This document shows positions 38,210 through 64,000 of a stretch of DNA of 64,000 nucleotides, in pieces. Below the pieces are notes generated by a model that worked only from the letters and a program-made list of their open reading frames with translations, had not been told where the DNA came from and searched no databases. The position numbers were made by a program, and so were the translations under genes. The stretch's first letter is position 1, and the number at the start of each line of letters is the position of its first letter. The DNA is from a virus (Duplodnaviria; Caudoviricetes), in the IMG/VR virus record IMGVR_UViG_3300010338_000470; one strand, 5' to 3'.

Positions 38210-38318
38210 TGAAACCTCAATCTGGTAGGGGGGGGTGGACAGGAATTGACTATAGCATGGAGAGTTCCAGGAATCTGGCTAACCCTCCAATTTCAAGTGG
38301 AGAGATGTTGGCTCTGAG

Positions 38319-51478: not shown

Positions 51479-51807
51479 GCTTCAGCCATTTCCGGGTGAC
51501 GTTCAATGAACTCGTCGTATCCGTCACGGTACTGTTCCACCGTGTTGGACACAACCCACCCCTTCTTGGTGTTAGAAAGAGACTGCATTCGAATGAAGTA
51601 AACCCTGGGCTTCCCAGGCTTTTCTTCTGTATCATCTTGGAATCGCATAGAGTGCCAGGCCCGACTCGAACGGGCATATCTTGGGTTGCAACCAAGCGCA
51701 TTGAGCCATCTCTGCCACTGGCACAAGTTGAGCCAGTTTTGCCACTTGGCTTAGGTGGCCCCACGGTCAACGACCAGAAAACCGTGAGGACTGGGCTTAT
51801 TCCCAGC

Positions 51808-51882
51808 TGGAGCGACATGGGAGAGTCGAACTCCCTTACCCGACTTGGAAGGACGGTGCATCACCAAAAATGCTTATGTCGC
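51808..51882 (-). tRNA. tRNA-Gly(TCC)
   Basis: Cloverleaf; CCA encoded. Confidence 0.88.
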
Positions 51883-51900
51883 ATGTGTCTAGCTTCTAGG

Positions 51901-52222
51901 TTAGCTTAGTTGAATGGCTACTGAGAAGTTGTGAAGGACAACGCAAAGGTAGACAAGAGAAATGACGAGTAGGCCGAAACCTATGAAGTCCGAATCCAGC
52001 TTGTACCCCGCCCAGACGATCAACCCGACTGCCAGCATCTTGATGCAGATGGCAAGCATCGGGGAGTGAATGAACAGGTCTGCAACGGGGTTGGCCTCAG
52101 ATCCACCGAAGGTAAAGACGAGGTGAGTGCTGAAAACATCCAAGATGTTCAACACTGCCAAAGTGAACCCTCTGGCCAGGATGGATTCCTGTGTTCTAGA
52201 CCTCAAGGCTTCCAACTCTACT
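51901..52222 (-). CDS. small membrane protein (DUF5658-like; start approximate)
   Basis: LNILDVFST...GGSEANP...K motif; 3 TM. Confidence 0.65.
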
Positions 52223-52233
52223 CCTTTGATGAG

Positions 52234-52315
52234 TGCGAGTGGTGGGACTCGAACCCACACATTTTTCAATAGCGGGGTTTAAATCCGCCGCGTCTGCCTA
52301 TTCCGCCACACTCGC
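52234..52315 (-). tRNA. tRNA-Leu(TAA)
   Basis: Leu D-arm GGCGGAATAGGCAGACGC; long variable arm. Confidence 0.88.
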
Positions 52316-52316
52316 T

Positions 52317-52395
52317 TGGCCCCCCCGGTAGGACTCGAACCTACAACGGACGCTGGGTAGAAGCCAGCCGCTCTAATCCATTGAGCTACGGAGGG
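52317..52395 (-). tRNA. tRNA-Arg(TCT)
   Basis: GCTGG-CTTCTAC-CCAGC. Confidence 0.88.
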
Positions 52396-52590
52396 AAGAT
52401 TCAGATTCTTCGACTAACGGCCCATCAGTAATCCCAGGTAACCTGGGGCTATGGACGACGCAACGAAAATCCAGTTCGACCACAAAATCCACTTCAGCTG
52501 CAAGTGGTCGAATGTCTGACGCCATCAAGCATCCACACTCTGGATGTCGCGATTGTTTCCTGAGCACGCAGTGAACCATACCAGCGACAC

Positions 52591-52890
52591 CTACGACTGT
52601 AGAAGATCCAAAACTTCTCCCAGGGGGGCTGCACCCACAATGCGAGCGACCTCTTGCCCTTCCTTGAGAAACAGGAGAGAGGGAACCTTCTGCACCTTGA
52701 ACCTCTTGCAAAGACCTATCTCCATCTCCGCGTTTACCTTGAACAAGGGCGTCCCAGACGTGGCCTCAGCCTCTTCCAGGACAGGATTCATGGCCTTGCA
52801 GGGCGAGCACCACTCGGCCCAGAAGTCAACCAGGACAGCGTCCTGGGTCTTGATGCTTTCATCAAATGAGTCAGAAGTAAGTTCAACCAT
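52591..52890 (-). CDS. trxA: thioredoxin
   Basis: VLVDFWAEWCSPCK. Confidence 0.92.
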   Translation of the reverse strand: MVELTSDSFDESIKTQDAVLVDFWAEWCSPCKAMNPVLEEAEATSGTPLFKVNAEMEIGLCKRFKVQKVPSLLFLKEGQEVARIVGAAPLGEVLDLLQS

Positions 52891-52966
52891 GGTGCTTGAT
52901 GCAGGAATCGAACCTGCGGCCTCTTCCGTGTCGAGGAAGCGCTCTAACCGTCTGAGCTAACCAAGC
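52890..52966 (-). tRNA. tRNA-Val(GAC)
   Basis: CTTCC-TCGACAC-GGAAG. Confidence 0.88.
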
Positions 52967-52971
52967 ATTAG

Positions 52972-53032
52972 TGGAGGAGCAAGGGAATCGAACCCTCGTA
53001 GATCGTCATCATACGTTGCCAAACGCTCCCCA
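52972..53032 (-). ncRNA. about 60-nt mini tRNA/tmRNA-like element (T-arm and acceptor only)
   Basis: TGGGGAGC...ACGAGGGTTCGATTCCCTTGCTCCTCCA. Confidence 0.5.
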
Positions 53033-53033
53033 A

Positions 53034-53397
53034 GGTGGAGGCGGAGGGAATCGAACCCTCGTCTTCCAGAGTGTACCACACGATTGTACAACCATTCCAG
53101 ATAAAGCGTTGGTCGCTTCGCAGCAAGCTGCTACCCGGACTTTCCCGAAAGTCGACGGTCTTTCCCGTTGTCAGCAGTCTTTCCAGCTGTCCTCCCCTAC
53201 TTCTGTTGCCAGGCTGTAGGAAACAGGCCCCGTGCGACCTCGCGGCTCACGTTGACTCTAGCCACTCAACCGTTAGGTCAGGCGGCTAGAGCGAACTGCT
53301 CGTTGGCGGTTCTTGTTGGTTCCCCGTTTAACGAGTCTGAGAAACTCGGGTTGAATCTAAGTGCTACAGATTCCGAAATCGAAACCTTGTCGCCCCC
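53034..53397 (-). ncRNA. ssrA: tmRNA, tag (A)ANEQFALAA
   Basis: 5' GGGGGCGACAAGGTTTCGA; 3' GGTTCGATTCCCTCCGCCTCCACC with G3:U70; tag GCC AAC GAG CAG TTC GCT CTA GCC GCC TGA. Confidence 0.95.
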
Positions 53398-53419
53398 TAG
53401 CTTCCGACAAGCGGAATAG

Positions 53420-53501
53420 TCCCCCAAGAGGGAGTCGAACCCTCACGCCCGAAGGCACCCGGTCCTAAGCCGGGCGCGTCTACCAGTTCCGCCATCGGGG
53501 G
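53420..53501 (-). tRNA. tRNA-Leu(TAG)
   Basis: Cloverleaf with long variable arm. Confidence 0.9.
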
Positions 53502-53504
53502 AAA

Positions 53505-54095
53505 TGAGTGTAGGGGAGCTAGGTTCAGGCTCCCCTGTCGCCACACTTTACCGGCCTGCTTAGACCTCGTGGCTTTGATCACACATCCAGGAACTACCCT
53601 TGGTTGTTATGGGGTTTGTGCGTATCCCCTTAGCCCCTACAGACTTCTTGGCATCAGCCCTGGCCGGGGCCTCATACCAGGGGGAGCGGAAATCTCCCCC
53701 TTCCCTTTACCAACGAACCTTACTCAAGGGTCCGTCCTGGGATATAACCCTACGTCTGTAGGTTAGCTCAGCATTTCCGTTTCACAGTTCAAAATGTGAA
53801 ATTCCCTATGCGTAGCGCTGAGCAGGCAGGGAGCACACCTCCTTGCGAGAGATGAGCTTTGCCACTCCGCTTTACCACCCCGATCACCCTGGCAAGGCTT
53901 TTCGAGGCTCTCTTTTCACATGCAGTGCCAGCCACATGCTCCCCCGGATTCCAGAGATGCTATCCCCGCTAAGGGTCCCTGGCGTCCGGTTCGTGGAGAT
54001 TTGGACCTAACGGCCCCGCAGAATCCTGGGAAGGATCCCGCGTATCGCAGGTTGCCCTGCTATCCGGTACTCCTCAACCGTCTAACTTTTCAAGT
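53505..54095 (-). ncRNA. large (about 590 nt) structured ncRNA, family unknown
   Basis: No credible ORF; many local and long-range helices; own promoter upstream. Confidence 0.65.
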
Positions 54096-54137
54096 GTCGT
54101 CCGTGGCCCCGTGGGGGCAACGGAGATAACTCTACCA
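54087..54137 (-). promoter_or_regulatory. extended -10 promoter (TGGTAGAGT), hairpin and boxA-like CACTTGAAAA
   Basis: Motifs read directly upstream of the ncRNA, tRNA-Leu and tmRNA. Confidence 0.45.
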
Positions 54138-54307
54138 TGTCAGTCTTCAACTTTCAAGCGAAGGCTCCAATGTTAGCTGCATCACCAAGGCTTGCAGCCA
54201 AACGCTCAGGGCATCCAGCATGCCGCCATCAAGTGGCGTTCCGTGCAGAAGTGGATGCACTAGGCTCAGGAGGCCCAAGGCCACCAAAAACAACTTGTAG
54301 GTTCGCA

Positions 54308-54382
54308 TGGAGCCGGTTGCAGGACTCGAACCCGCCCACACTGCTTACAAGGCAGTTGCTCTTCCTGATGAGCTAAACCGGC
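54308..54382 (-). tRNA. tRNA-Thr(TGT)
   Basis: ACTGC-CTTGTAA-GCAGT. Confidence 0.88.
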
Positions 54383-54388
54383 AAAACT

Positions 54389-54480
54389 TCCCAAGATGGG
54401 GAGGACTCGAACCTCCTCCTCCCCCCACCAAAGCTGACATGCAAGGGGGGTGTGCTTCCAATACACCACATATCCTGGGA
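54389..54480 (-). ncRNA. tRNA-like element with 19-nt anticodon loop and extended acceptor stem
   Basis: D and T arms intact; loop CTTGCATGTCAGCTTTGGT. Confidence 0.6.
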
Positions 54481-54694
54481 GCAGGTAAAGGATTTCAGAG
54501 ATGGTTCCACTGGAACATCACAATCCTCCCCCTTCCCTTACATCACAGCTAGTCCTGATTGCCTGTTGGGCCTTTAACCCAACTGGTTTCTTGTGCCTGT
54601 CAGCGTGATACAACCAGTTTTCACTGAGGTTCTTGAAAGGGTTCAGACTGGTATTTGCTCCAGTCTCCCCACCTCCTACTACCCGATACCAAAG

Positions 54695-54766
54695 CACCCT
54701 CGGAAGGACTCGAACCTTCAACTTCCTCGTTCGTAGCGAGACACTCTTCCATTGAGTTACGAGGGT
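54695..54766 (-). tRNA. tRNA-Arg(ACG)
   Basis: CTCG-CTACGAA-CGAG. Confidence 0.88.
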
Positions 54767-54771
54767 TTAAG

Positions 54772-54853
54772 CGGAGCGAGAGGGATTCGAACCCCCAACC
54801 CTTGACGGGCCACCGTTTTCAAGACGGATTGGCACCCCAATGCCGGTCGCTCC
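54772..54853 (-). tRNA. tRNA-Ser(TGA)
   Basis: Long variable arm; G73. Confidence 0.85.
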
Positions 54854-54894
54854 AAACTGGCTGTCGCCAGTCTACCTTGGCGATCTACGGTTAG

Positions 54895-54979
54895 CGGAAC
54901 ACCGAGGACTCGAACCCCACCCCTTGCGGGGCGCATTCCTTAGCAGGGAAGCGCGGCAAGCCTTACCGCTTGATGTTCC
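54895..54979 (-). tRNA. tRNA-Ser(GCT)
   Basis: Long variable arm; G73. Confidence 0.85.
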
Positions 54980-55059
54980 AGAATGAATGCGCTGCCAGCG
55001 CTTTCCGTTGTGCACCGAAGTGCATGCAGGCCGACGGGGCACCACCATAAAATCTAGGC

Positions 55060-55294
55060 TTCGATAGTCGGGGGCGATACCCATCACTGATGGGTCATCC
55101 CACACCAACTTGAAGAAATCTACACAATCATCAACAGAACGTCCCTGAAGGTACATCTCTATACACTTGTGGACGAGAGTCCCAAAGGATGCTGCTGCCG
55201 ATTGAAGTTCTACAACGTCAGGATGCTCTTGTGCCAGCTTGTACTGTAGATTGCACTCTTGAAACTTTTTGAGTAGCGACGGATTGAACTTCAC
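55060..55294 (-). pseudogene. N-terminal fragment of a PD-(D/E)XK RecB/Cas4-like exonuclease
   Basis: FNPSLLKKFQECNLQYKL...AASFGTLVHKCIE; the frame then runs into a tRNA-Ser gene with no nuclease motifs. Confidence 0.65.
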
Positions 55295-55602
55295 CAAAAA
55301 TCCCTCGCTGTGATAACTGATTCCCATCCATCGTATTCAGAAATGAGATAAGGCCCGTCAACCTCTACCACCTCTAAATCATCAGCCCCACCCGTGTGAA
55401 AGTGTTTCAAACCCAAATCAACCATCATCTGGATGATCAGATCATGGTGAGGGCCACTCCTTTGGCATAAATCCTTTGGGTTGCCACCCGACTCAATGAA
55501 GTCAATGATAGGCCGGTACTCAGCGATCTCTTTCCGCTTATCATCTGGTGCCCAGGTCGACCATCCAGCACCATAGCCTGTACTTACTAAAATCTTCGTC
55601 AC
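55291..55602 (-). CDS. conserved phage hypothetical protein (GYGAGWSTW...EYDGWE)
   Basis: Recurrent phage motif. Confidence 0.75.
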   Translation of the reverse strand: MTKILVSTGYGAGWSTWAPDDKRKEIAEYRPIIDFIESGGNPKDLCQRSGPHHDLIIQMMVDLGLKHFHTGGADDLEVVEVDGPYLISEYDGWESVITARDFW

Positions 55603-55901
55603 ATCTTCTCCAAAAGAATCAACAGAAACTGGATCTCAGCATCTGAACACTCCAACACATTCACGAGCCTAGCGAACACGTTCGCTGCCGGGAAGCGAGT
55701 CGGAGTGATCGTGATATCGAAATCACGCATGCTCCCATCCTCTAGAAGGAAGCTCAAGGAAACATCCGTTGGATACGGCTCCTCCGTTCCAGCCCATCTC
55801 TCGTTGATGTACGTCTCGCTGAATCCAAGGAAAGCCTTCTGAATCACCTCGGCAACATCACTACTGAACAGTTCCCCGTCGTGCGATAACTTGTTTCCCA
55901 T
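55599..55901 (-). CDS. hypothetical protein
   Basis: TGCTACGTT-6 nt-ATG. Confidence 0.6.
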   Translation of the reverse strand: MGNKLSHDGELFSSDVAEVIQKAFLGFSETYINERWAGTEEPYPTDVSLSFLLEDGSMRDFDITITPTRFPAANVFARLVNVLECSDAEIQFLLILLEKM

Positions 55902-55983
55902 GCCGCCAACGTAGCACCCACTTCTACGTATAGGGCAGCCCTCCCCATCCTTGAGGTCGAGAGTGGTGCTACAGAACGTTCAG

Positions 55984-56066
55984 CGGTAAGAGGAGTACTC
56001 GAAACCCATGCCTAGCGACACGATCCGTTTTCGAAACGGTCCCCAGGCCTCCTGGGTTCACTTACC
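55984..56066 (-). tRNA. tRNA-Ser(CGA)
   Basis: CCGT-TTCGAAA-ACGG; long variable arm. Confidence 0.8.
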
Positions 56067-56070
56067 GGAG

Positions 56071-56157
56071 CGGAACACCGAGGACTCGAACCCCATGCCA
56101 TTTTTCAGACACCAACTTCTTTCCAGGAAGTGCCGACGCCTAGTCGGTTGATGTTCC
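56071..56157 (-). tRNA. tRNA-Ser(GGA)
   Basis: ACTTC-CTGGAAA-GAAGT; long variable arm. Confidence 0.85.
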
Positions 56158-56231
56158 ATATGTTCGCTTCATCCTGCGCTGATACTCCCGTTGGTACTCA
56201 CGCTCTACTGCTGGATCTGAGAATGGTATGA

Positions 56232-56591
56232 TCAGGCAGCCACCCGACGACTCAAGCCGGTGGTGTCGCCACCTCGCTTGTGACGCTTGGCGTCAGCGAA
56301 GGTCCTGACCGGGTTCCTCTTACGGATAGGGCTACACCCACAGGAATCGAAAAGGCCACGTGTCGTGCCATTGTTGGTCATGACATACAGCTTCTTCCAT
56401 TGACCCTTCTGGCTCTGGCGTGGGGCTGTAAAGTCGCGGCCCATGTTGAGCCCCTGCTTCTGACACTTCAGACAACACATTGTGCCGGTCTGGGTATGCT
56501 CACCATACTGGGAGCGCGGACCTTTCCAGGCGATGCGACAATCGAAACAAGCGTAAACGCTTCGATAGTAGTTGTAACTGTAGCGGCACAT
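56232..56591 (-). CDS. Zn-binding hypothetical protein
   Basis: ACFDCR...CLKC...MGRDFTAPR; TACTGT-6 nt-ATG. Confidence 0.7.
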   Translation of the reverse strand: MCRYSYNYYRSVYACFDCRIAWKGPRSQYGEHTQTGTMCCLKCQKQGLNMGRDFTAPRQSQKGQWKKLYVMTNNGTTRGLFDSCGCSPIRKRNPVRTFADAKRHKRGGDTTGLSRRVAA

Positions 56592-56783
56592 ACCACTACA
56601 GTATCACATTCGGTTTCAGGCGATAGCCTTAACCTCCAAGACCTCCACTTCTGCCAGCTCATAATCTTCAAGCTGGCAAAGAATCCCGTATCTGATGACG
56701 GCTTCGTCAGGAGTCGAAGCCCTGACGACTATCGGCCCATTCGGGCCATCCAAATGCCATTCCATGGCTATTTCCTTTCCGGA

Positions 56784-56859
56784 TGGGGCGACTGAGGAGA
56801 TTCGAACTCCCACTAACAGGGACACAACCTATCGTGCTAGCCATTACACTACAGCCGCC
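56784..56859 (-). tRNA. tRNA-His(GTG)
   Basis: G-1, C73, loop TTGTGTC. Confidence 0.88.
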
Positions 56860-56900
56860 ATGACTGATTTTCAAAATTTGCACCTCGTACAGGTGCATCA

Positions 56901-56974
56901 TGGTCCCCTCGGAAAGAATTGAACTCTCGTAAGCAAGTTTCGAAGACTCGCCACCGGCTCCACCGGCAAGGGGA
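56901..56974 (-). tRNA. non-canonical tRNA-Arg(TCG)
   Basis: No acceptor-D connector, 5-nt D loop, 6-7 bp anticodon stem, CCA end. Confidence 0.7.
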
Positions 56975-57103
56975 TGGCCCACCTTACGCAAGGGTTTGGG
57001 CGGGTACTGGCCTGCGATCCTGAACCCACAACTCGGGTTTGGTCCTTGCGCCAGGATTCTTCAGACTTCACCAGTATCGCTGGCTGTTGAAATCTGAAGT
57101 TCG
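56975..57103 (-). ncRNA. about 130-nt structured ncRNA candidate
   Basis: CTTCAGATTTCA/TGAAGTCTGAAG stem; GCGCAAGG/CCTTGCGT possible pseudoknot. Confidence 0.45.
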
Positions 57104-57177
57104 CTGGAGTGGCAGGTCTCGAACCTGCAAATCCCTGATTCAGAGTCAGGTGGGTCTACCAGTTCCCCTACACTCCA
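57104..57177 (-). tRNA. tRNA-Gln(CTG)
   Basis: CCTGA-CTCTGAA-TCAGG; U1-A72. Confidence 0.88.
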
Positions 57178-57178
57178 A

Positions 57179-57465
57179 TGGCCCCTGCTTGCCTCCGGGG
57201 CGGATGGCCGCAGAAGAAGGTCCTGGGGCCGGTCTCCTAAACCCCAGGACCCTCTCTGCACGATGAGCCTAAGTGGCGATGGCCACTTGGTGCATTTAGC
57301 GCCACAGGCCCAAGCCTGTAGGTCCAAGCCAAGTCATATCTAGCTTCCTTGGCCTATGGGGATACCGCTAGCCCCAAAGGAGCGACAAGCACTCCTCTTA
57401 GCGGAAACCAATCCTAGCTGGTTGGCCAGGGAGTTCCTGGACTTGCTTGGATTCGGTTCCCACGA
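57179..57465 (-). ncRNA. about 290-nt structured ncRNA candidate
   Basis: Nested helices TCCAAGC/GCTTGGA, AAGTC/GACTT, GGTCCTGGGG/CCCCAGGACC, AAGTGGC/GCCACTT. Confidence 0.55.
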
Positions 57466-57467
57466 AC

Positions 57468-58013
57468 TTAACCGGAGATCGCCTCAGCTTGAAGGTTGTC
57501 GACACCGAAGAGTGGCTTCAGCAAGACTCCACAGTCCGCCAGGTTGTCAAAACCTCCCACTTGACGATCGATCACACAAAGAGCGCAATCCACGGCAGCC
57601 CCCAAGTGACGAAGGTCGCCAACTGAGGTAATGATCTGACCGCCTGAAGTTACGACATCCTCGATAACTAGAGTCTGCCTTCCTTCTACATTAAACCCCT
57701 CCACCAAGCGTTCTGTTCCGTAGGCCTTGGCCTCCTTCCGCACGAACGCCACCGGAAGGTCGGTTTCCAAGGATAACCCAACAGCGATAGGAATCCCGCC
57801 CATCTCCAGTCCAGCTAAACACTCGGTCTCATCGGGGATGAGCGAGACTAGGGCAGAACAGATACGTCGCAATAGTTCCGGGTCCGATTCAAATTGATAC
57901 TTGTCGAAGTATCGATCAGACGTGGACCCAGAGCGAAGGGTGAAGGTACCCACCGTTTCGCACCTATTGCTTAGTTGCGATCCAAGATGCTGCAAACTGT
58001 TTGTCGCCATCAA
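57468..58013 (-). CDS. pyrE: orotate phosphoribosyltransferase
   Basis: FTLRSG..YFDKY, FVRKEAKAYG, VIEDVVTSGG. Confidence 0.92.
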   Translation of the reverse strand: MMATNSLQHLGSQLSNRCETVGTFTLRSGSTSDRYFDKYQFESDPELLRRICSALVSLIPDETECLAGLEMGGIPIAVGLSLETDLPVAFVRKEAKAYGTERLVEGFNVEGRQTLVIEDVVTSGGQIITSVGDLRHLGAAVDCALCVIDRQVGGFDNLADCGVLLKPLFGVDNLQAEAISG

Positions 58014-58066
58014 TCTGCTTCTCTGGAGCGGTTACTTCGAGGGCTGATCCAGCGATCAGCCATTAG

Positions 58067-58142
58067 TGGCGGGAGAGGGATTTGAACCCTCGACCTCCTG
58101 CTTATGAGGCAGGCGAGCACATCCAGACTGCTCCACCCCGCT
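58067..58142 (-). tRNA. initiator-like tRNA-fMet(CAT)
   Basis: 1:72 mismatch; GCGGGGTGGAGCAG; T loop TTCAAAT. Confidence 0.85.
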
Positions 58143-58253
58143 ACGCAAACTATAGCACACTGGGGTCTTCACCCGATAATCTTGGCTCATAGACAACCAC
58201 GGAGAGAGGTATCCGCTAGGATTCAAGTGGAACCCATTCAGCGAAGGAAACCC

Positions 58254-59174
58254 ATGCCTTACTTGTCTCCCACCCAAGAAGAAATAGACCTAATGACCTC
58301 TCAGCTAAGCAGTCGTCTGGGAGATGCGGAAGCGAGGCTAGAGGCTCTTGAAATCCAAGTAGCAGATTTGCTGAACTCCAGTCAGCCATCCCCGATTACT
58401 CCAACCGAATGGGGTTACAACCTTACCAGCCCCACCAACCTTGAGTCGGTGGCACTCAACTTGGGTGACCCTCAGGTTGTCAGGCTCTTTTTCTCAGGTT
58501 CTCCCGGTTCAGGGGAACCAACCTGGGCTCTGGGTAAAACCGCTATCGTTAGCTTCAAGTTCAACCCGACTCAGGCCTTCCCGGCAGAGAAGCTGCGAGC
58601 CTTCCTGGCTTCCAAGCCAGCCAACGTGAAGGCCTACGTTTGCACCTATCATGAACCAGAAGGCAACATCAGAGCGTACCAATTCACGGCAGCGCAATAC
58701 CGTGACTTCGTCACAGCAACTACTTCCGTATGCCGGGAGTTCGAGAACTGTATCTCAACCCCCATCCTCATGCAATGGACCCTAGAGTCAGCCTCCGGAC
58801 GGAACGTAAACGACTATCTTGAAGGAGTCGAATACGATGTCCTCGGATGGGACGTTTACCCAAGACTAGGAACCATCAAGGACATCCAGGCTCAGCTAAA
58901 GTCCATTCACGACGAATCCGTCAAGAGGGGTAAGCCTTGGCTTATTGGTGAAGTGGGGGCCGTGAAGTACGTCGAAGGACGCCAGTACCCCCGCCCTTCC
59001 TACACTGAAGCAGATCGGGCTGTTTGGATGCTTAACACGGTAGCCCAGATCAAGGCTCTAGCTGTCCAACCTCTGGCGGTCTGCTGGTTCACTTACCCGA
59101 CCGATGGGCACCTCTACACTCTTGAATCAGCTGAGACGCAAAACGCCATGAAGCAAATTCTTGCCAACGGGTAA
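58254..59174 (+). CDS. glycoside hydrolase-like TIM barrel (clan GH-A/GH26-like) with N-terminal coiled coil
   Basis: TYHEPE (acid/base), DVLGWDVY, GKPWLIGEVG (nucleophile); AAGGA RBS. Confidence 0.75.
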   Translation: MPYLSPTQEEIDLMTSQLSSRLGDAEARLEALEIQVADLLNSSQPSPITPTEWGYNLTSPTNLESVALNLGDPQVVRLFFSGSPGSGEPTWALGKTAIVSFKFNPTQAFPAEKLRAFLASKPANVKAYVCTYHEPEGNIRAYQFTAAQYRDFVTATTSVCREFENCISTPILMQWTLESASGRNVNDYLEGVEYDVLGWDVYPRLGTIKDIQAQLKSIHDESVKRGKPWLIGEVGAVKYVEGRQYPRPSYTEADRAVWMLNTVAQIKALAVQPLAVCWFTYPTDGHLYTLESAETQNAMKQILANG

Positions 59175-59175
59175 G

Positions 59176-59526
59176 GTTGAGAAGCCCTGTAGCCGGAGTT
59201 TTGTCATTTAAGACCATCATCCATCTAGGAAGAAACCATCTCCCTCCCCCTCGCGGGGGTGCACCAACCCGGTCATAATGGGCCTGGCCGACCTAGACCT
59301 ATTTGGCTTACTACAGCTGAAGTTTACTCAGCCAGGAACATTACTGCCCTGCTGGGGGTCTCTTACACCCCCTCTTCCACCTACTGACCTGTGCCCTGAG
59401 GGCCATCGGCCGTCCGTTCGCTATGCACTTGTTGTCCTCTCGCGAGGCCCGGTTTAACCCGGCAGCTTTGCCATATGTAGCTCCGAACTTCCTCTACTTT
59501 CGCAGCGATGGTCCAGGCTTCTCAAC
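59176..59526 (-). ncRNA. rnpB: RNase P RNA
   Basis: P1 GTTGAGAAGCC/GGCTTCTCAAC; GAGGAAGTTCGGAGC and ACAAAACTCCGGCTAC P4 signatures. Confidence 0.92.
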
Positions 59527-59531
59527 ACTAG

Positions 59532-59615
59532 TGTCGGTAGAGGGACTTGAACCCTCACGCCCCTAAGGGCACTAGCCCCTCAAGCTAGCGCGTATACCAA
59601 TTCCGCCATACCGAC
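59532..59615 (-). tRNA. tRNA-Leu(GAG)
   Basis: Cloverleaf with long variable arm. Confidence 0.9.
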
Positions 59616-59620
59616 AAGTA

Positions 59621-59694
59621 TGGTCGAGATGGGGGGAATCGAACCCCCGTCATACGGTCCCAAACCGTAAGTTCTACCATTGAACTACATCTCG
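59621..59694 (-). tRNA. tRNA-Pro(TGG)
   Basis: TACGG-TTTGGGA-CCGTA. Confidence 0.9.
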
Positions 59695-59751
59695 TAAGGA
59701 GGAGACCCCTCAGTCTCACCACTTTGACGTTGCGGGCAGGTGACGCCCGGA

Positions 59752-59827
59752 TGGTGCGGTATGCCGGATTCGAACCGACTGTCTTCTCGTTGGCAACGAG
59801 ACGCATCGCCAGCAATGCTTATACCGC
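59752..59827 (-). tRNA. tRNA-Gly(GCC)
   Basis: TCTCG-TTGCCAA-CGAGA; A73. Confidence 0.85.
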
Positions 59828-59832
59828 CAAGG

Positions 59833-59908
59833 TGGAGCCCGCGAAGGGATTCGAACCCCTACTTTCTCGTTACGACGGAGACGTGCTAGCCATTAACACT
59901 ACGCAGGC
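59833..59908 (-). tRNA. tRNA-Thr(CGT)
   Basis: Loop GTCGTAA; C:C mismatch closing the stem. Confidence 0.8.
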
Positions 59909-59909
59909 A

Positions 59910-59986
59910 TGGAGCCCCCAGGGAGAATCGAACTCACCTCTTGTAGCGTACCATGCTACCGTGCTATCCATTACCACTATGGAGGC
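59910..59986 (-). tRNA. tRNA-Thr(GGT)
   Basis: GTAGC-ATGGTAC-GCTAC. Confidence 0.85.
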
Positions 59987-59989
59987 CTG

Positions 59990-60533
59990 ACAGTGATTGA
60001 GGCTCACTGTGGGCCTGAGAACTCTCCTACCCATGGCCTTGGGTCGCCTGATTTACCTAATATCCGACTTGACGGTACTTCCCCGCCCTTTTTCAGGCAA
60101 GCGCACGGATGGAACGAACACCCGCAGGGCCGAGCACATACGATACTACGTAGCTCCCCTCAATGTCGCTAGAGGTTTCTACCATTGTACCCCACCCGCT
60201 ACGCGATTGTGTAGCAAGCCTGGTAGCAACGCATGTGCCGGGTATCGCACATGTTACCCTAGCCGGTTTTTTGTTTTACCATGGATCAGCTGTATACATG
60301 CTCGGGTTAAGAGCCCTCGCCACTGTCCAAGTTCCGTGTGACCTTCACGTTCACGTAGTTGGCTAACGTTCCATGCCCGTTATTTAATATGCTCGTTCAA
60401 GCATAACCAACTACCGCTCTGAGCCTAAGATCTCTTTGAGGTCGGACTGTCCTCACCCTACAGATGTCTTAGCATCCCTGCACTGAACGGACTGGGAGCA
60501 CAACCCGTTCCTGATTGCCCCGAAGGGCTCTCA
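59990..60533 (-). ncRNA. large (about 540 nt) structured ncRNA, possibly GOLLD-like
   Basis: No credible ORF; many hairpins; lies between tRNA-Gln and tRNA-Thr. Confidence 0.65.
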
Positions 60534-60536
60534 TCG

Positions 60537-60607
60537 TTCTCCGCAGAGGAATCGAACCCCTAGCTTCTGGGCCAAAACCAGACGTGTTTCCGTTACACCA
60601 TCGGAGA
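60537..60607 (-). tRNA. tRNA-Gln(TTG)
   Basis: TCTGG-TTTTGGC-CCAGA. Confidence 0.85.
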
Positions 60608-60611
60608 ATAG

Positions 60612-60683
60612 TGGAGTCGCGGGGAATCGAACCCCGATCTTCTGGTTGCAAACCAGAGGTAATGGCCCTTATACGACGACCCC
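60612..60683 (-). tRNA. tRNA-Ala(TGC)
   Basis: G3:U70; loop TTTGCAA. Confidence 0.9.
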
Positions 60684-60686
60684 AAT

Positions 60687-60760
60687 TGGTGCACCTACGA
60701 GGAATCGAACCTCGGTCAGTCGGATGTAAGCCGACCGCTCTCCCATTAAGCTATAGGTGC
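60687..60760 (-). tRNA. tRNA-Val(TAC)
   Basis: GTCGG-CTTACAT-CCGAC. Confidence 0.9.
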
Positions 60761-60764
60761 TCGG

Positions 60765-60837
60765 TGCGGGCACCAGGGATTGAACCTGGGTCACGCAGAT
60801 ATAAGCTGCGTGGGGGCAACCAGCCCCCCCTACCCGC
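60765..60837 (-). tRNA. tRNA-Ile(TAT)
   Basis: CGCAG-CTTATAT-CTGCG; G-run D stem. Confidence 0.75.
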
Positions 60838-60852
60838 TAGATTCGACCACAG

Positions 60853-60936
60853 TGGGGGCGGTGGGATTCGAACCCACAACGGTCTTTCGACGCCGAGTTA
60901 AAAGCTCGGTCCCTTCAGCCATTCGGTCACACCCCC
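60853..60936 (-). tRNA. tRNA with Lys(TTT) anticodon and long variable arm
   Basis: CCGAG-CTTTTAA-CTCGG; variable arm CGTCGAAAGACCGTT. Confidence 0.8.
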
Positions 60937-61385
60937 AGAAGGCCATAAGATCTGGCCCATTTGCGAACAGCATTATCGCTGACGCCGTACTTGCTAGCAA
61001 TAGCCACCCATGACATTGATGCAATCTCCTGCCTGAGAACTTCAGGAGAAGGTCTTTCAACCTTCCGGCTAGCTATCCTAGCACATCTATCTGAACAATA
61101 CAACTTGTTCTTCGTTGCCGTACCACACCGCATGCAATCAACAGTGGGTGCTGAGTGCTTCTCTTTGTGTTGATCGACACTAAGCACTTCTAAGTTGTCC
61201 AGAGCATTGTTTGTGCGATCTTCGTCAATGTGGTGGACATGTTCATCTTCAAGAAGTGGTCGACCGAGTGCTTGCTCCATCAGATATCGAGGATACGACT
61301 GGCTCGTATAAACCCCATCATCACTGATGAGCACGACGATTAGTCGTCCTTCTTTGCCGTTGGAATACGGACCGTAGACCCTCAT
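60927..61385 (-). CDS. HNH homing endonuclease with C-terminal HTH, inside the tRNA array
   Basis: HVHHIDEDRTNNALDNLEVL; CMRC..YCS..C; IASKYGVSDNAVRKW. Confidence 0.88.
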   Translation of the reverse strand: MRVYGPYSNGKEGRLIVVLISDDGVYTSQSYPRYLMEQALGRPLLEDEHVHHIDEDRTNNALDNLEVLSVDQHKEKHSAPTVDCMRCGTATKNKLYCSDRCARIASRKVERPSPEVLRQEIASMSWVAIASKYGVSDNAVRKWARSYGLLGV

Positions 61386-61627
61386 GGTGAAACCTTCTTG
61401 CTGACTGGACGAATCCAGAGCGGAAGAGGAATCCAGATCCTCTCGTGGCCCTTGCCCTTGCCGAAGTCATGTTCGATCTGCACCTTATGTCTGCCCATGC
61501 AGGCGAACTTAGAACGACGTACGTTCCAATAGTGTTTTGCATTCAGAACCTTCTTGTGTTGACCTACCTTCTTATTGGCGGAAGGTACGGCGATGACTGA
61601 GAGCCATCCGGTTCTTTGGATGCGCAT
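61382..61627 (-). CDS. small basic hypothetical protein
   Basis: GAAAGG RBS; ATGA overlap. Confidence 0.55.
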   Translation of the reverse strand: MRIQRTGWLSVIAVPSANKKVGQHKKVLNAKHYWNVRRSKFACMGRHKVQIEHDFGKGKGHERIWIPLPLWIRPVSKKVSP

Positions 61628-61642
61628 GGTACCTTTCTACGA

Positions 61643-61719
61643 TGGCACGGGGGGAAGGAATCGAACCCTCGCTACACTTGGGTCAGAACCAAGCTGGCAA
61701 ACCAGCATGCCACCCCCGT
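61643..61719 (-). tRNA. tRNA-Gln(CTG), atypical D arm
   Basis: CTTGG-TTCTGAC-CCAAG; 1-nt connector. Confidence 0.75.
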
Positions 61720-61720
61720 A

Positions 61721-61834
61721 TGGTGGTTCCGGCCGGAATCGAACCGGCAACCCCCGTCGGGGCGACATCCATGTATCTGACTACAGAAATCGGGTGCTAG
61801 GGCGGGCTTTCCCCCGCAATCCTTTCGGACCACC
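61721..61834 (-). ncRNA. about 110-nt tRNA-like RNA (T arm and ACCA end, non-cloverleaf interior)
   Basis: GCCGGTTCGATTCCGGC-CGGAACCACCA; interior hairpins GCGGG/CCCGC, TCTG/CAGA, CCCC/GGGG. Confidence 0.6.
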
Positions 61835-61839
61835 CGTAG

Positions 61840-61913
61840 TGGGCATACTCGGATTCGAACCGAGAATCCTGGAAGTTTGAGTTCCGGTGCTTTGCCAGTT
61901 AGCACATATGCCC
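61840..61913 (-). tRNA. tRNA with CAA (Leu) anticodon on a short-variable-loop body
   Basis: GGAA-CTCAAAC-TTCC; 5-nt variable loop. Confidence 0.75.
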
Positions 61914-61964
61914 TAAGTTTCTCTTGCTATTCTTCCAAGTAGGCGTTTGAGCGTGACATGCGCT

Positions 61965-62008
61965 GTCTGGGTGGAAGCCAGGTGCTCTGCCAATTGGGCT
62001 AGACAGAC
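61965..62008 (-). pseudogene. 5' half of tRNA-Gly(TCC), T arm missing
   Basis: GTCTGTCTAGCCCAATTGGCAGAGCACCTGGCTTCCACCCAG followed by unrelated sequence. Confidence 0.65.
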
Positions 62009-62009
62009 A

Positions 62010-62096
62010 TGGTGCCGGAGGAGGGATTCGAACCCCCTAAGCTCAAAAGCAACTGATTTACAGTCAGCCCCAACTCACCGTCGTTGGCGCTCCGGC
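62010..62096 (-). tRNA. tRNA-Tyr(GTA)
   Basis: GCTGA-CTGTAAA-TCAGT; long variable arm; CCA. Confidence 0.9.
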
Positions 62097-62107
62097 GTGG
62101 AGCGATA

Positions 62108-62410
62108 GGTACGATGGTGTGCCACATCCATGGTTCGATGTAGCGGTTAGCCCACTGCTTGTGCAGACCCAAAGGCTTGCCCTTGTCGTCAAGCGGGCCG
62201 AGCTGTGATAGCTCTCGCACACCCTCAACGCAGGCATCCCTCATGCGCAGGATGATCTCCTCAGCCTTGGCACGATCCTCGTCGGTCATGGGCGTTACCG
62301 CCTGCATGCCCGGTTGGTTATACCTATAGTCCACCGGCAAGGCTGGATCATCTTCGATCCTGCTTAGCTGCTTCCACGTTGGGATGGCTCGACTAGATGC
62401 CGAGTTTCGA
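62108..62410 (-). pseudogene. internal fragment of a second, divergent thyX
   Basis: RNSASSRAIP...NQPGMQA...LGLHKQWANRYIEPWMWHTIV aligns with the C-extein of thyX at 6328-7083. Confidence 0.88.
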
Positions 62411-62441
62411 AGCCACTCTGACCAGACTGAGTTACACCCCC
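62409..62441 (-). pseudogene. tRNA 5' half fused to the thyX fragment
   Basis: GGGGGTGTAACTCAGTCTGGTCAGAGTGGCTTC: acceptor 5' strand, D arm and first anticodon strand. Confidence 0.75.
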
Positions 62442-62442
62442 G

Positions 62443-62517
62443 TGGCGCTCTATCCGGGACTCGAACCCGATTCTCAAGCTTGACAAGCTTGGGTGGTAAC
62501 CCATACACCAATAGAGC
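62443..62517 (-). tRNA. tRNA-Asp(GTC)
   Basis: CAAGC-TTGTCAA-GCTTG; G73; CCA. Confidence 0.9.
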
Positions 62518-62519
62518 AG

Positions 62520-62768
62520 GTGCCCCCTCTCCCCTTGCTAGCAGGAGATGACTTAGGAGGACTTTTAGGTCAGTCTGGTTTCCGGTACCCTGACGAGTAT
62601 CAGTCGACAAGGCTGCCTTGCAGCGCTACAGGGACAGGCGCGTTACCTGCCATCACCGGCACACCCCTGACTTTTGGGTGCTTCGCTCTTGTAGAAGTGG
62701 ACGGGTTGGACGTTGGCGTCTCAGCCACAAGAGTACGTCGCCCCATTACCGCTGAGTCGACCCGTCAT
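62520..62768 (-). ncRNA. about 250-nt structured ncRNA candidate
   Basis: GACGGGT/ACCCGTC, CTCAGC/GCTGAG, CTCTTGT/ACAAGAG pseudoknot, GCTGC-AAG-GCAGC, TCTCC/GGAGA. Confidence 0.55.
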
Positions 62769-62780
62769 AGATCTATCAAT

Positions 62781-63146
62781 CTAGCCTTTCCACAAGAAGT
62801 CGGGGAAGGGCTTGAAGGTCTTGTCTTCTAAGCTATCTAGACTCCAGATCCCTTGTGGTGGGGTTAGACCCGTTCGATTGAGGCGCTCATTGACTGCCTC
62901 ATTGAATGCCTCCTTGTTCCAGTAGACACCGCTGTCGCCAGAGTACGAAAACTCTGACAGACGTATGTGTTGACCGGGGTGAGGAACAGCTTCTTCAAGG
63001 GAAGCCCTCTGGTCGAACTTGAACTTGAGTTCAATTGTCCCGGAGAGATCCACGGCTGTCACAGCTTGAGTCCCATCCTCCAAAGTTTCAACCTTCGTCA
63101 CCCAGAGGGTGCCGGGAGCGTATACCATCGTAGACATGGGGGGCAT
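62781..63146 (-). CDS. hypothetical protein
   Basis: ORF MPPMSTMVYAPG... downstream of tRNA-Asn. Confidence 0.6.
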   Translation of the reverse strand: MPPMSTMVYAPGTLWVTKVETLEDGTQAVTAVDLSGTIELKFKFDQRASLEEAVPHPGQHIRLSEFSYSGDSGVYWNKEAFNEAVNERLNRTGLTPPQGIWSLDSLEDKTFKPFPDFLWKG

Positions 63147-63169
63147 CTTAACACCCCTAACTACAGAAG

Positions 63170-63242
63170 CTCTGGGACCAGGATTCGAACCCGGAACTTT
63201 CGGGTAACAACCGAACGCGTTCGCCATTTACGCCATCCCAGA
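63170..63242 (-). tRNA. tRNA-Asn(GTT)
   Basis: TTCGG-TTGTTAC-CCGAA. Confidence 0.88.
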
Positions 63243-63293
63243 ATGGTTCCGGTCTCTCCCGGATGTCAAACCACTCACGCAGGTTTCGCCTCG

Positions 63294-63367
63294 TGGTTCC
63301 TCTCAGATTCGAACTGAAGCCTCTGGGTCTTCACGCCAGCGTGCCATTCCAACTACACCAAAGAACC
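63294..63367 (-). tRNA. tRNA-Phe(GAA)
   Basis: Loop GTGAAGA; C:C closing mismatch. Confidence 0.75.
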
Positions 63368-63368
63368 A

Positions 63369-63453
63369 TGGTACTCCTGGGGGGAGTCGAACCCCCACAC
63401 CCGAAGGCAACTGAGTTTGAATCAGCCGCGTCTGCCAATTCCGCCACAGGAGC
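63369..63453 (-). tRNA. tRNA-Leu(CAA), canonical
   Basis: Leu D arm, long variable arm, CCA. Confidence 0.92.
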
Positions 63454-63463
63454 ATGACTGAAG

Positions 63464-63532
63464 CGCCCTTGCCCAGAGTCGAACTGGGTCAACTTGCTTA
63501 GGAGGCAAATGTCGGTATCCCACCGCAAGGGC
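63464..63532 (-). tRNA. non-canonical compact tRNA-Arg(CCT)
   Basis: GCCCTTG directly followed by D stem CGGT-GGGAT-ACCG; loop CTCCTAA. Confidence 0.7.
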
Positions 63533-63542
63533 AGTTGTTTAG

Positions 63543-63614
63543 CACCCCCACGGGGATTCGAACCCCGTTCTCGGACTTGAAAGGACCACGTCTTAACCCA
63601 TAGACCATGGGGGC
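63543..63614 (-). tRNA. tRNA-Glu(TTC)
   Basis: Loop CTTTCAA; G73. Confidence 0.85.
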
Positions 63615-63649
63615 AAGTTTGTGTGGTCCGGTTTTCAGAGCCACACTAG

Positions 63650-63722
63650 TGGGTGTGAGAGGATTTGAACCTCCACCAATCGGGTAAGAGCCGATCATGC
63701 TAGCCGTTAACACCACACACCC
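63650..63722 (-). tRNA. tRNA-Lys(CTT)
   Basis: ATCGG-CTCTTAC-CCGAT. Confidence 0.88.
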
Positions 63723-63881
63723 ATGAGTTGACCGCATAAAGTGCACTTGCGGCCAACTTATCATCGCGTAGGGCATTTGAGCCCCCCACTCGGCTCCGGC
63801 TGTCTATTCGCTGTTCCTCGGCAGCTAGCCGCCCTAACCCCTAGGAGGATGAATCCTGTGGGAGGGGAGGATTTTCTTGCG

Positions 63882-63954
63882 TCGGCATGGAGAGAGTTGA
63901 ACTCCCATTTCGACCTTATCAGAGTCGCGTCTTAAACCGTTGGACCACATGCCG
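63882..63954 (-). tRNA. tRNA-Ile(GAT)
   Basis: CGACT-CTGATAA-GGTCG. Confidence 0.85.
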
Positions 63955-64000
63955 TAGTGTCGGATTGGGATGACTTTCCCTCAAGAAGTCCGACAGCTCC

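What the first reader, a model, noticed from the sequence alone, without database searches (positions are those of the whole stretch)
51800..64000. Phage RNA island: tRNA-punctuated operon with tmRNA, its own RNase P RNA and about seven unexplained structured ncRNAs
Seen: about 40 tRNA or tRNA-like genes, tmRNA and RNase P RNA, all on the - strand. Between them are ORF-less, helix-rich spacers at 53505-54095, 54475-54690, 56975-57103, 57179-57465, 59990-60533, 62520-62768 and 63723-63880, nearly all bounded by tRNAs. Known: phage tRNA arrays can host the large ornate RNAs GOLLD and ROOL, and RNase P cleavage at tRNA 5' ends releases flanking RNA. Inference: a self-processing operon in which the phage ribozyme cuts out a set of structured RNAs. 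This is the best candidate for an undescribed system.
Basis: partly seen in the sequence, partly recalled or inferred. Interest (0 to 1): 0.88.

Follow-up and report, generated by a model that had tools for sequence, protein, structure and literature searches.

The report
Phage tRNA island with new RNAs
A large uncultured phage carries about 37 tRNA genes, a tmRNA, its own RNase P ribozyme gene and at least four conserved structured RNAs of unknown function, the largest of which (627 nt) matches no described RNA family.

Summary
On the minus strand of 51650-63954 there are 34 ARAGORN tRNAs, 2 tRNAs found only by Rfam and 1-2 tRNA-like folds. There is also a tmRNA (53033-53397) and a full-length type A RNase P RNA (59174-59524, 145 bits).

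I found five more phages of the same clade (about 165-185 kb, metagenomic). All of them carry RNase P RNA and tmRNA in the same kind of island.

- **53502-54128:** a real 627-nt structured RNA, conserved in six phages. It has 161 predicted pairs, 53 of them with compensatory changes (0/500 shuffles). It has its own conserved extended -10 promoter and always sits upstream of tRNA-Leu genes and the tmRNA. Rfam 15 gives no hit, including GOLLD and ROOL.
- **62518-62695:** well supported by covariation in four phages.
- **59987-60535 and 63723-63880:** moderate support, from two phages each.
- **54476-54693, 56994-57102 and 57178-57467:** only a thermodynamic signal, with no homologues found.

The "single self-processing operon" reading is only partly right. 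The island holds protein genes, a convergent plus-strand gene and at least two internal phage promoters. Release of the RNAs by RNase P fits the anatomy but is untested, and I obtained no expression data.

The first-stage scan had already noted these elements on this same genome, but not on other DNA.

The parts
51650..63954 (-). tRNA island: 34 ARAGORN tRNAs, 2 Rfam-only tRNAs (54393-54475, 62013-62096) and tRNA-like folds at 63454-63541 and 61720-61838. It runs on past the window's end.
53033..53397 (-). tmRNA, tag peptide ANEQFALAA
   Evidence: 99.8 bits. Homologous tmRNAs with similar tags occur in the relatives.
59174..59524 (-). Phage-encoded bacterial type A RNase P RNA
   Evidence: 145.4 bits, full model. 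Homologues score 137-160 bits in five relatives. The six-sequence alignment has 100 pairs, 30 of them compensatory, including in P4.
53502..54128 (-). Large (about 627 nt) conserved structured RNA of unknown class, ending directly at the 5' end of tRNA-Leu(tag)
   Evidence: Alignment A5 of six phages has 161 pairs, 53 compensatory and 92.6% paired. None of 500 shuffles reached this, and slid controls gave 4-14. No Rfam hit at E<=10. No gene is called in any homologue.
54129..54157 (-). Promoter of the large RNA: TTGAAA, 17 nt, TG-n-TAGAGT (extended -10)
   Evidence: The TGNTA(G/T)AGT motif is invariant in all six phages. It is strand-specific in the relatives.
59987..60535 (-). Structured RNA between tRNA-Gln(ttg) and tRNA-Thr(ggt). 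A core of about 240 nt is shared with L174:19341-19563. The window copy also has an insert of about 310 nt (roughly 60129-60437) in the top of a long hairpin.
   Evidence: 55 pairs, 11 compensatory, 0 broken. z = -3.3 to -4.2.
62518..62695 (-). Small conserved three-way-junction RNA (paired core about 105 nt), directly upstream of tRNA-Asp
   Evidence: Alignment A8 of four phages, always between tRNA-Asn and tRNA-Asp. It has 29 pairs, 11 compensatory and 97.4% paired. None of 500 shuffles reached the observed values, except further pair types (14/500). Slid controls gave 1-2.
63723..63880 (-). Candidate structured RNA between tRNA-Ile(gat) and tRNA-Lys(ctt)
   Evidence: Homologue at L010:11698-11837, also upstream of tRNA-Lys(ctt). 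29 pairs, 9 of them compensatory, from two sequences.
54476..54693 (-). Spacer with no ORF that folds as one long imperfect hairpin. Lineage-specific.
   Evidence: z = -3.0 to -3.6. No homologue in the relatives.
56994..57102 (-). Two-hairpin spacer downstream of tRNA-Gln(ctg). Lineage-specific.
   Evidence: z = -2.5 to -3.3. No homologue.
57178..57467 (-). Hairpin-rich 290-nt stretch between the pyrE stop codon and tRNA-Gln. It may be a 3' UTR or terminator region that arrived with pyrE.
   Evidence: z = -5.5 to -6.0, but the plus strand also gives -5.1. No homologue.
58149..58157 (-). Second internal phage promoter -10 element (TGCTATAGT), 7 nt upstream of tRNA-Met
58254..59174 (+). Conserved plus-strand protein gene (306 aa, no known family) that converges on the 3' end of RNase P RNA and interrupts the island
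   Evidence: ATG preceded by a ribosome-binding site. Homologues at 55-68% identity in the relatives. No Pfam or PHROG match.
57468..58013 (-). Orotate phosphoribosyltransferase (PyrE) gene, probably acquired from an actinobacterial host
   Evidence: about 60% identity to PyrE of Acidimicrobiia and other Actinomycetota.
60927..61385 (-). HNH homing-type endonuclease gene inside the island

Best explanation
Overall picture. This is the translation and RNA-processing module of a large (about 165-185 kb) uncultured phage whose host is probably an actinobacterium. It is not a single operon. It consists of several minus-strand transcription units driven by a phage-specific promoter motif, (C)GTAG-N10-TGNTA(G/T)AGT in the relatives.

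Contents. The units encode 36-38 tRNAs, a tmRNA and a complete type A RNase P RNA. They also encode at least four non-tRNA structured RNAs that are conserved in related phages.

The large RNA. The largest of these (53502-54128, 627 nt, about 30 helices) is a new class of large 'ornate' phage RNA. By size and by its tRNA-island context it is comparable to GOLLD and ROOL, but it matches neither. It starts at its own promoter and is the first gene of a unit that continues into the tRNA-Leu genes and the tmRNA.

Shown: the genes, their conservation, the covarying structures and the promoter motif.

Inferred:
- The transcripts are polycistronic precursors.
- RNase P, made of the phage RNA and presumably the host RnpA protein, cuts at each tRNA 5' end.
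- That cut creates the 3' ends of the structured RNAs lying directly upstream.
- The released RNAs are stable and act in trans during infection, for example in takeover of translation or in protection against host tRNA-targeting defences.

The three lineage-specific hairpin-rich spacers may be only processing or terminator structures.
For: RNA genes.

Related phages. They share synteny in the order UvrD, island, RtcB, plus-strand gene, peptide deformylase. All carry RNase P RNA (137-160 bits), and all whose fetched sequence reaches that region carry tmRNA.

RNase P. 30 of 100 pairs covary, including P4.

Large RNA:
- Homologues in six phages, always between a protein gene or tRNA and the tRNA-Leu/tmRNA block.
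- 53 of 161 pairs are compensatory and 92.6% of cells are paired. None of 500 shuffles reached this, and slid controls gave 4-14.
- Many invariant G-U pairs fit the minus strand only.
- Frequent 1-2 nt indels and the absence of called genes argue against coding.
- The extended -10 is invariant.
- No Rfam family matches at E<=10.

Smaller RNAs.

Internal promoters and the plus-strand gene.

tRNA context. tRNAs encode CCA and are often only 1-5 nt apart, and every candidate RNA abuts a tRNA 5' end.

Literature context for GOLLD and ROOL near phage tRNA islands: PMC12286853, PMC5737381.
Against:
- Only six phages carry the large RNA, and four of them are fairly close to each other. Covariation events are therefore fewer than cell counts suggest.
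- Two of the smaller RNAs rest on alignments of only two sequences.
- Three spacers have no homologues. One of them (57178-57467) folds about equally well on both strands, as a plain hairpin or terminator region would.
- Nothing shows that the phage P RNA, rather than the host enzyme, does the processing. No rnpA gene was looked for systematically.
- The function of the large RNA is unknown.
Confidence: 0.72

Rival explanations
1. The 627-nt RNA is a highly divergent member of GOLLD or ROOL rather than a new class.
For: It shares their context (a phage tRNA island), has a similar size to ROOL (mean 581 nt; PMC5737381) and has a multi-junction architecture. An earlier first-stage note called it ROOL-like.
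Against: Rfam 15 cmscan gave no GOLLD or ROOL match at gathering, at E<=1 or at E<=10 with permissive filters on an 841-nt slice. There was no blastn hit in 50,697 GenBank phage records or in PLSDB plasmids.
Confidence: 0.15
2. Most spacers are non-functional leftovers, or are merely cis-acting processing, terminator or attenuator hairpins. The leftovers would be decayed tRNAs, fragments of homing-endonuclease genes, or 3' UTRs brought in with acquired genes. On this reading they are not stable trans-acting RNAs.
For: The island is clearly a recombination hotspot. It holds an HNH gene, a thyX fragment fused near a tRNA-like gene, a host-derived pyrE and a 310-nt insertion in one element. Three spacers lack homologues. 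57178-57467 folds equally well on both strands. 62518-62780 as a whole shows no excess stability.
Against: The large RNA and the 62518-62695 element keep their pairing through many compensatory changes across phages whose proteins are only 55-80% identical. That requires selection on RNA structure. The large RNA also has a conserved promoter.
Confidence: 0.3
3. The RNase P RNA gene is a passively acquired or decaying host gene copy with no role in the phage.
For: Its P4 sequence departs from the usual bacterial consensus (GAGGAAGUUCGG instead of GAGGAAAGUCCGG). No phage rnpA was seen among the precomputed Pfam hits of neighbouring genes in the relatives.
Against: It matches the full length of the model above the gathering score in six to seven phages. 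It has 30 covarying pairs, and the P4 changes are compensated. RNase P-like genes also sit inside dense tRNA arrays of unrelated very large IMG/VR contigs, which suggests repeated selection for them.
Confidence: 0.08

Closest known systems
ROOL RNA (Rfam RF03087) and GOLLD RNA (RF01998)
   Same: They are large, many-helix RNAs encoded by phages and prophages, often next to tRNA islands and probably co-transcribed with tRNAs. No protein partner or function is known (PMC5737381, PMC12286853). The RNA at 53502-54128 shares the size range (627 nt against about 581 for ROOL), the context and the ornate multi-junction fold.
   Different: The RNA matches neither covariance model, even at E<=10. It is found here only in one clade of uncultured phages that probably infect actinobacteria. 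It has its own extended -10 promoter and a fixed position upstream of tRNA-Leu genes and the tmRNA. Whether it forms oligomers or cages is unknown.
Phage T4 tRNA gene cluster with stable RNAs C and D (species 1 and 2)
   Same: From established knowledge: T4 co-transcribes eight tRNAs with two small stable RNAs of unknown function, and RNase P and other host RNases cut them out of the precursor. The small elements at 62518-62695 and 63723-63880, and the tRNA-bounded layout, follow the same logic.
   Different: T4 relies on the host's RNase P, whereas this phage clade carries its own P RNA gene. The island here is about ten times larger. It also holds a tmRNA, a 627-nt RNA and interspersed protein genes.
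tRNA/tmRNA islands of cultured actinobacteriophages (Mycobacterium cluster C, Streptomyces cluster BE)
   Same: They have 30-45 tRNAs and one tmRNA in genomes of 130-155 kb (for example PMC13191466, PMC13097058).
   Different: Those genome reports describe no RNase P RNA. Blastn with the window's P RNA, large RNA and 59987-60535 spacer finds nothing similar in 50,697 GenBank phage records.
Bacterial type A RNase P RNA (RF00010)
   Same: It gives a full-length match to the model, and helices P1-P4 and the others are kept by covariation.
   Different: It is encoded by a phage, inside a tRNA array. The P4 strands carry compensated substitutions relative to the common bacterial sequence.

Membership tests
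Bacterial RNase P RNA, type A (RF00010) | Covariance-model score above the curated gathering threshold over the full model | tested here: met
   145.4 bits against 100, positions 1-367 of 367. Relatives score 137-160 bits.
Bacterial RNase P RNA, type A (RF00010) | Core helices (P1, P2, P4 and others) maintained by compensatory change among homologues | tested here: met
   100 pairs, 30 of them compensatory. The P4 pairs at columns 42-49 with 391-397 are kept, with G-C to A-U changes.
Bacterial RNase P RNA, type A (RF00010) | Catalyses 5' maturation of pre-tRNA together with the RnpA protein | not testable with these tools
   This needs an in vitro assay. No PF00825 appears among the precomputed Pfam hits for neighbouring genes in the relatives, but whole genomes were not scanned.
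tmRNA (RF00023) | Covariance-model match plus a tag reading frame ending in ...ALAA followed by a stop | tested here: met
   99.8 bits against 47. The ARAGORN tag is ANEQFALAA*.
ROOL RNA (RF03087) | Match to the ROOL covariance model | tested here: not met
   No hit at gathering, E<=1 or E<=10.
ROOL RNA (RF03087) | [quoted passage not shown] | tested here: inconclusive
   The RNA is 627 nt with about 30 helices and several junctions. Pseudoknots were not searched for, and the architectures were not compared helix by helix.
ROOL/GOLLD kind (large phage RNAs near tRNA islands) | Encoded in a phage or prophage next to tRNA genes, with no ORF and extensive covarying structure | tested here: met
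GOLLD RNA (RF01998) | Match to the GOLLD covariance model (conserved 3' domain), usually over 800 nt | tested here: not met
   No hit for 53480-54320 or for 59980-60540. The lengths are 627 and 549 nt.
T4-type tRNA-cluster stable RNAs | Small RNAs co-transcribed with tRNAs and released by RNase P and other RNases | not testable with these tools
   The anatomy fits, since each element abuts a tRNA 5' end. No RNA data were available.

The most novel reading that the evidence does not exclude
The 627-nt RNA would be a third, so far undescribed class of large ornate phage RNA. It might be a self-assembling RNA particle or a ribozyme. It would work with the phage's own RNase P RNA, tmRNA and tRNA set as part of a near-autonomous phage RNA-processing and translation-takeover module. 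The smaller conserved elements would be further new stable RNAs, cut out of tRNA precursors by the phage-encoded ribozyme.
Probability: 0.45. Interest if true: 0.88.

Novelty: new variant of a known kind. Interest (0 to 1): 0.78.

Why it matters
Large, intricately folded bacterial and phage RNAs without a known function are rare. GOLLD, ROOL and OLE recently turned out to form unprecedented RNA-only assemblies. A further class with strong covariation, a defined promoter and a fixed partner set (tRNA-Leu genes and the tmRNA) is a ready target for cryo-EM and for functional work.

I found no report of a phage-encoded RNase P RNA in the searched literature. One that is conserved across a clade, and apparently recurs in tRNA arrays of other very large viral contigs, suggests that big phages bring their own tRNA-processing ribozyme as well as tRNAs. 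That bears on how far phages can replace or bypass host translation machinery and defences aimed at tRNA.

Tried and rejected
- **Megablast and blastn of the island, RNase P RNA and the two large spacers against GenBank phages.** Only tRNA hits came back. The large RNA and RNase P RNA were also searched against plasmids, with no hit for the large RNA and one weak RNase P match.
- **PyrE as a probe.** It is a host-derived gene, so it led to bacteria and to an unrelated IMG/VR contig, L001, which has no tRNAs.
- **Exact-motif scans.** The phage P4 19-mer and two probes from the large RNA gave 0 hits in IMG/VR, and one probe gave 0 hits in the JGI metagenome contigs. A genome-contig scan gave 2 hits, both inside coding sequences, so they are chance.
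- **Profile-based locus searches in IMG/VR and metagenomes.** The UvrD profile returned mostly distant helicases. Only L092 was related, and it lacks the RNAs in the part fetched. The profile of the plus-strand ORF, run against IMG/VR only, found only 25-31% identity hits.
- **More distant relatives.** L176 and L177 (UvrD 48-52% identical) have tRNAs but no RNase P RNA, tmRNA or large RNA in the 10 kb fetched.
- **Readings rejected.** A protein-coding reading of 53502-54128 was rejected: no conserved ORF, many 1-2 nt indels, and covariation. A group I/II intron, rRNA, SRP, 6S or OLE identity was rejected because Rfam gave no hit.


Full report
**1. Observation**

ARAGORN finds 36 genes in the window. 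In 51650-63954 there are 34 tRNAs and one tmRNA (tag ANEQFALAA), all on the minus strand. Rfam at gathering thresholds adds the following:
- a full-length bacterial type A RNase P RNA at 59174-59524 (145.4 bits, gathering score 100, model positions 1-367);
- the tmRNA (99.8 bits);
- one extra tRNA at 54393-54475.

The E-value scan adds another tRNA at 62013-62096. Folding shows a cloverleaf with a CCU anticodon loop at 63454-63541, and a tRNA-like fold with a canonical T-arm at 61720-61838.

A gap map and an ORF list confirm that the seven named spacers exist and lack long minus-strand ORFs. None matches any of the 4227 Rfam families at E<=1. The two large ones match none even at E<=10 on short slices.

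**2. What the genome is**

The window encodes typical phage functions:
- a class II ribonucleotide reductase and a ThyX, each with an intein;
- DnaB, SSB and an exonuclease;
- an amidase/PG_binding_1 endolysin;
- peptide deformylase directly beside the island.

A PyrE gene inside the island (57468-58013) is about 60% identical to PyrE of Acidimicrobiia and other Actinomycetota. This points to an actinobacterial host. No GenBank phage is close.

**3. Relatives**

The plus-strand ORF 58254-59174 has a ribosome-binding site and an ATG. Its homologues are 55-68% identical and lie on long metagenomic contigs. Fetching these and extending them through neighbouring genes and through the UvrD helicase gave five further phages:
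- L008 (ENA, 168 kb)
- L010 (54 kb)
- L011 (71 kb)
- L172 (JGI, 173 kb)
- L174 (186 kb)

A 19-kb fragment, L005, was also recovered. The shared gene order is terminase, UvrD, tRNA island, RtcB (with or without an RNA ligase), plus-strand gene, more tRNAs, peptide deformylase, methylase, amidase, NT5C and SSB.

Every relative whose fetched sequence reaches that region carries an RNase P RNA (137-160 bits) and a tmRNA, with tags ANEQFALAA, ADEQFAVAA, ANTQFALAA, ANKQFALAA or ANEQFAYAA. Each has 19-44 tRNAs in the 19-23 kb fetched.

More distant phages (UvrD 48-53% identical: L176, L177, L092) have tRNAs but none of these RNAs in the 10 kb fetched.

**4. RNase P RNA**

Six phage copies align with 100 predicted pairs, of which 30 show compensatory changes. 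Among them are P1 and the P4 helix, whose unusual strands (GAGGAAGUUCGG... / ...CUCCGGCU) change together. This is a maintained gene, not a decaying copy.

I found no paper in the held library that describes a phage-encoded RNase P RNA. However, a scan of IMG/VR for the canonical P4 17-mer gave 22 contigs. At least seven of these carry RNase P-like sequence inside dense tRNA arrays, and most of those are 100-497 kb long. The feature therefore seems to recur in large phages.

**5. The large RNA (53502-54128)**

- **Distribution.** Blastn and nhmmer find this spacer in all five relatives that reach the region: L008:11035-11663, L010:9304-9931, L011:5572-6207, L172:15688-16322 and L174:15882-16515. 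In every phage it lies in a gap of about 760-800 nt with no called gene. It sits directly upstream of a run of tRNA-Leu genes followed by the tmRNA.
- **Conservation.** The six-sequence alignment (A5, 79% mean column identity) has long invariant blocks, for example a 34-nt block with only two variable positions. It also has visibly covarying hairpins.
- **Structure.** RNAalifold predicts 161 pairs in about 30 helices, and 53 pairs have compensatory changes.
- **Controls.** 92.6% of cells are paired, against 84.1% in shuffles. There are 53 pairs with double changes against 25 +/- 3.5. None of 500 shuffles reached any measure, and sliding the partner by 1-3 columns gave only 4-14 such pairs.
- **Strand and coding.** Invariant G-U pairs fit only the minus strand. 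Frequent 1-2 nt indels exclude a coding reading.
- **Promoter.** A promoter with an extended -10, TGNTA(G/T)AGT, is invariant in all six phages. In the window it reads TTGAAA-17-TAGAGT with TG, at 54157-54129. In the relatives the motif is preceded by CGTAG ten bases upstream, occurs only on the island strand, and also marks the start of the island.
- **Wider searches.** No homologue was found in GenBank phages, PLSDB, IMG/VR or JGI metagenome contigs, by motif or by blastn. A scan of 185,579 species genomes gave two hits, both chance matches inside coding sequences. A covariance model of the best-conserved domain hits only the six clade members in 0.57 Mb of loci.
- **Conclusion.** This is a real, large structured RNA not represented in Rfam 15. 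Its closest analogues are ROOL and GOLLD (PMC5737381, PMC12286853). It shares their kind of context but not their models.

**6. The other spacers**

- **62518-62780.** A core of about 170 nt (62518-62695) is conserved in L172, L011 and L174, always between tRNA-Asn and tRNA-Asp. A three-way-junction fold of 29 pairs has 11 compensatory pairs and is 97.4% paired. None of 500 shuffles reached the observed values, except further pair types (14/500). Slid controls gave 1-2. This element is well supported.
- **59987-60535.** The first 98 nt and the last roughly 140 nt match L174:19341-19563, a 223-nt spacer that also follows a tRNA-Gln. The window copy has an extra stretch of about 310 nt in the top of a long hairpin. 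On the shared core, 55 pairs are predicted: 11 compensatory, 9 changed on one side and none broken. Support is moderate, from two sequences.
- **63723-63880.** It matches L010:11698-11837, and both lie upstream of tRNA-Lys(ctt). 29 pairs are predicted, 9 of them compensatory. Support is moderate, from two sequences.
- **54476-54693, 56994-57102 and 57178-57467.** The z-scores are -3.6, -3.3 and -5.5, but no homologues were found in any relative. The third lies just after the acquired pyrE gene and folds equally well on the opposite strand. It may be only a 3' UTR or terminator region.

**7. Other gaps explained**

- 62097-62442 is a thyX fragment, 48% identical to residues 217-307 of the resident ThyX.
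- 60937-61642 holds an HNH endonuclease gene.
- 52591-52890 is thioredoxin-like.
- About 56612-56771 is a conserved 49-aa ORF found in all the relatives.

**8. How it probably works**

The 'one operon' idea fails. The plus-strand gene converges on the RNase P gene. TGNTAKAGT promoters lie at 54137-54129 and, seven bases before tRNA-Met, at 58157-58149. Two more lie upstream of other minus-strand genes in the window, and all four matches are on the coding strand.

The layout still fits tRNA-punctuated processing. The tRNAs encode CCA and are often 1-5 nt apart. Each candidate RNA ends exactly where a tRNA begins, so a cut by RNase P would create its 3' end. That step, the use of the phage rather than the host P RNA, and the stability and function of the released RNAs are all inferences. 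No expression data could be obtained.

**9. Verdict**

The main result is a conserved 627-nt structured RNA of a new class, plus a clade-wide phage RNase P RNA and at least one (probably three) smaller new structured RNAs. I rate it a new variant of a known kind, namely large ornate phage RNAs in tRNA islands, with interest 0.78.

Noticed in passing
window 61999-62610 (-): This ORF contains a thyX fragment. Its residues 68-167 are 48% identical to residues 217-307 of the resident ThyX, beginning just after the site where the resident gene carries its intein. It lies between tRNA-Asp and a class-II tRNA-like gene (62013-62096) and looks like a recombination or homing remnant.
   Followed up: partly
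IMG/VR loci L183, L184, L188, L190, L193, L199, L200: A scan for the canonical RNase P P4 17-mer hit 22 viral contigs. Several are 100-497 kb long and carry RNase P-like sequence inside dense tRNA arrays, with 10-26 tRNAs in 3-11 kb. Phage-borne RNase P RNA may be a recurrent and under-reported feature of very large phages.
   Followed up: partly
L002 11371-12540; L003 11404-13529 and 714-1127; L006 11251-13068: Related phages carry RtcB (in one case fused to an HNH domain), an RNA ligase and an RF-1-domain (ArfB-like) protein around the island. This suggests tRNA repair and ribosome rescue. The window has no RtcB between the plus-strand gene and RNase P RNA.
   Followed up: no
window 57468-58013 (-): An orotate phosphoribosyltransferase gene, about 60% identical to actinobacterial PyrE, sits inside the tRNA island. 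It is present only in this phage among the relatives examined.
   Followed up: partly
window 54129-54137, 58149-58157, 38249-38257, 12595-12603 (all -); relatives L008, L010, L011, L172, L174: There is a strand-specific phage promoter motif, (C)GTAG-N10-TGNTA(G/T)AGT. The window has 4 matches on the coding strand and 0 on the other. Each relative has 2-4 matches, all on the island strand.
   Followed up: partly
window 58254-59174 (+): A conserved 306-aa protein of no known family (invariant motifs YHEPEDN and EYDV[IL]GW) is always encoded antisense to the island. In this phage it ends exactly at the 3' end of RNase P RNA.
   Followed up: partly
window 63454-63541 (-) and 56901-56993 (-): 63454-63541 folds as a tRNA with a CCU (Arg) anticodon loop, yet both ARAGORN and Rfam missed it. 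Conversely, ARAGORN's tRNA-Ser(gga) at 56901-56993 has no Rfam support and a poor cloverleaf.
   Followed up: partly
L008 11664-11773, L010 9932-10038, L011 6208-6318: In the relatives, one to three GC-rich hairpins with GNRA-type loops (GGTTGGGGGCGGAAGCCCC...) lie between the large RNA and the first tRNA-Leu. They are absent from the window. They may be 3'-end-protecting or processing hairpins.
   Followed up: no
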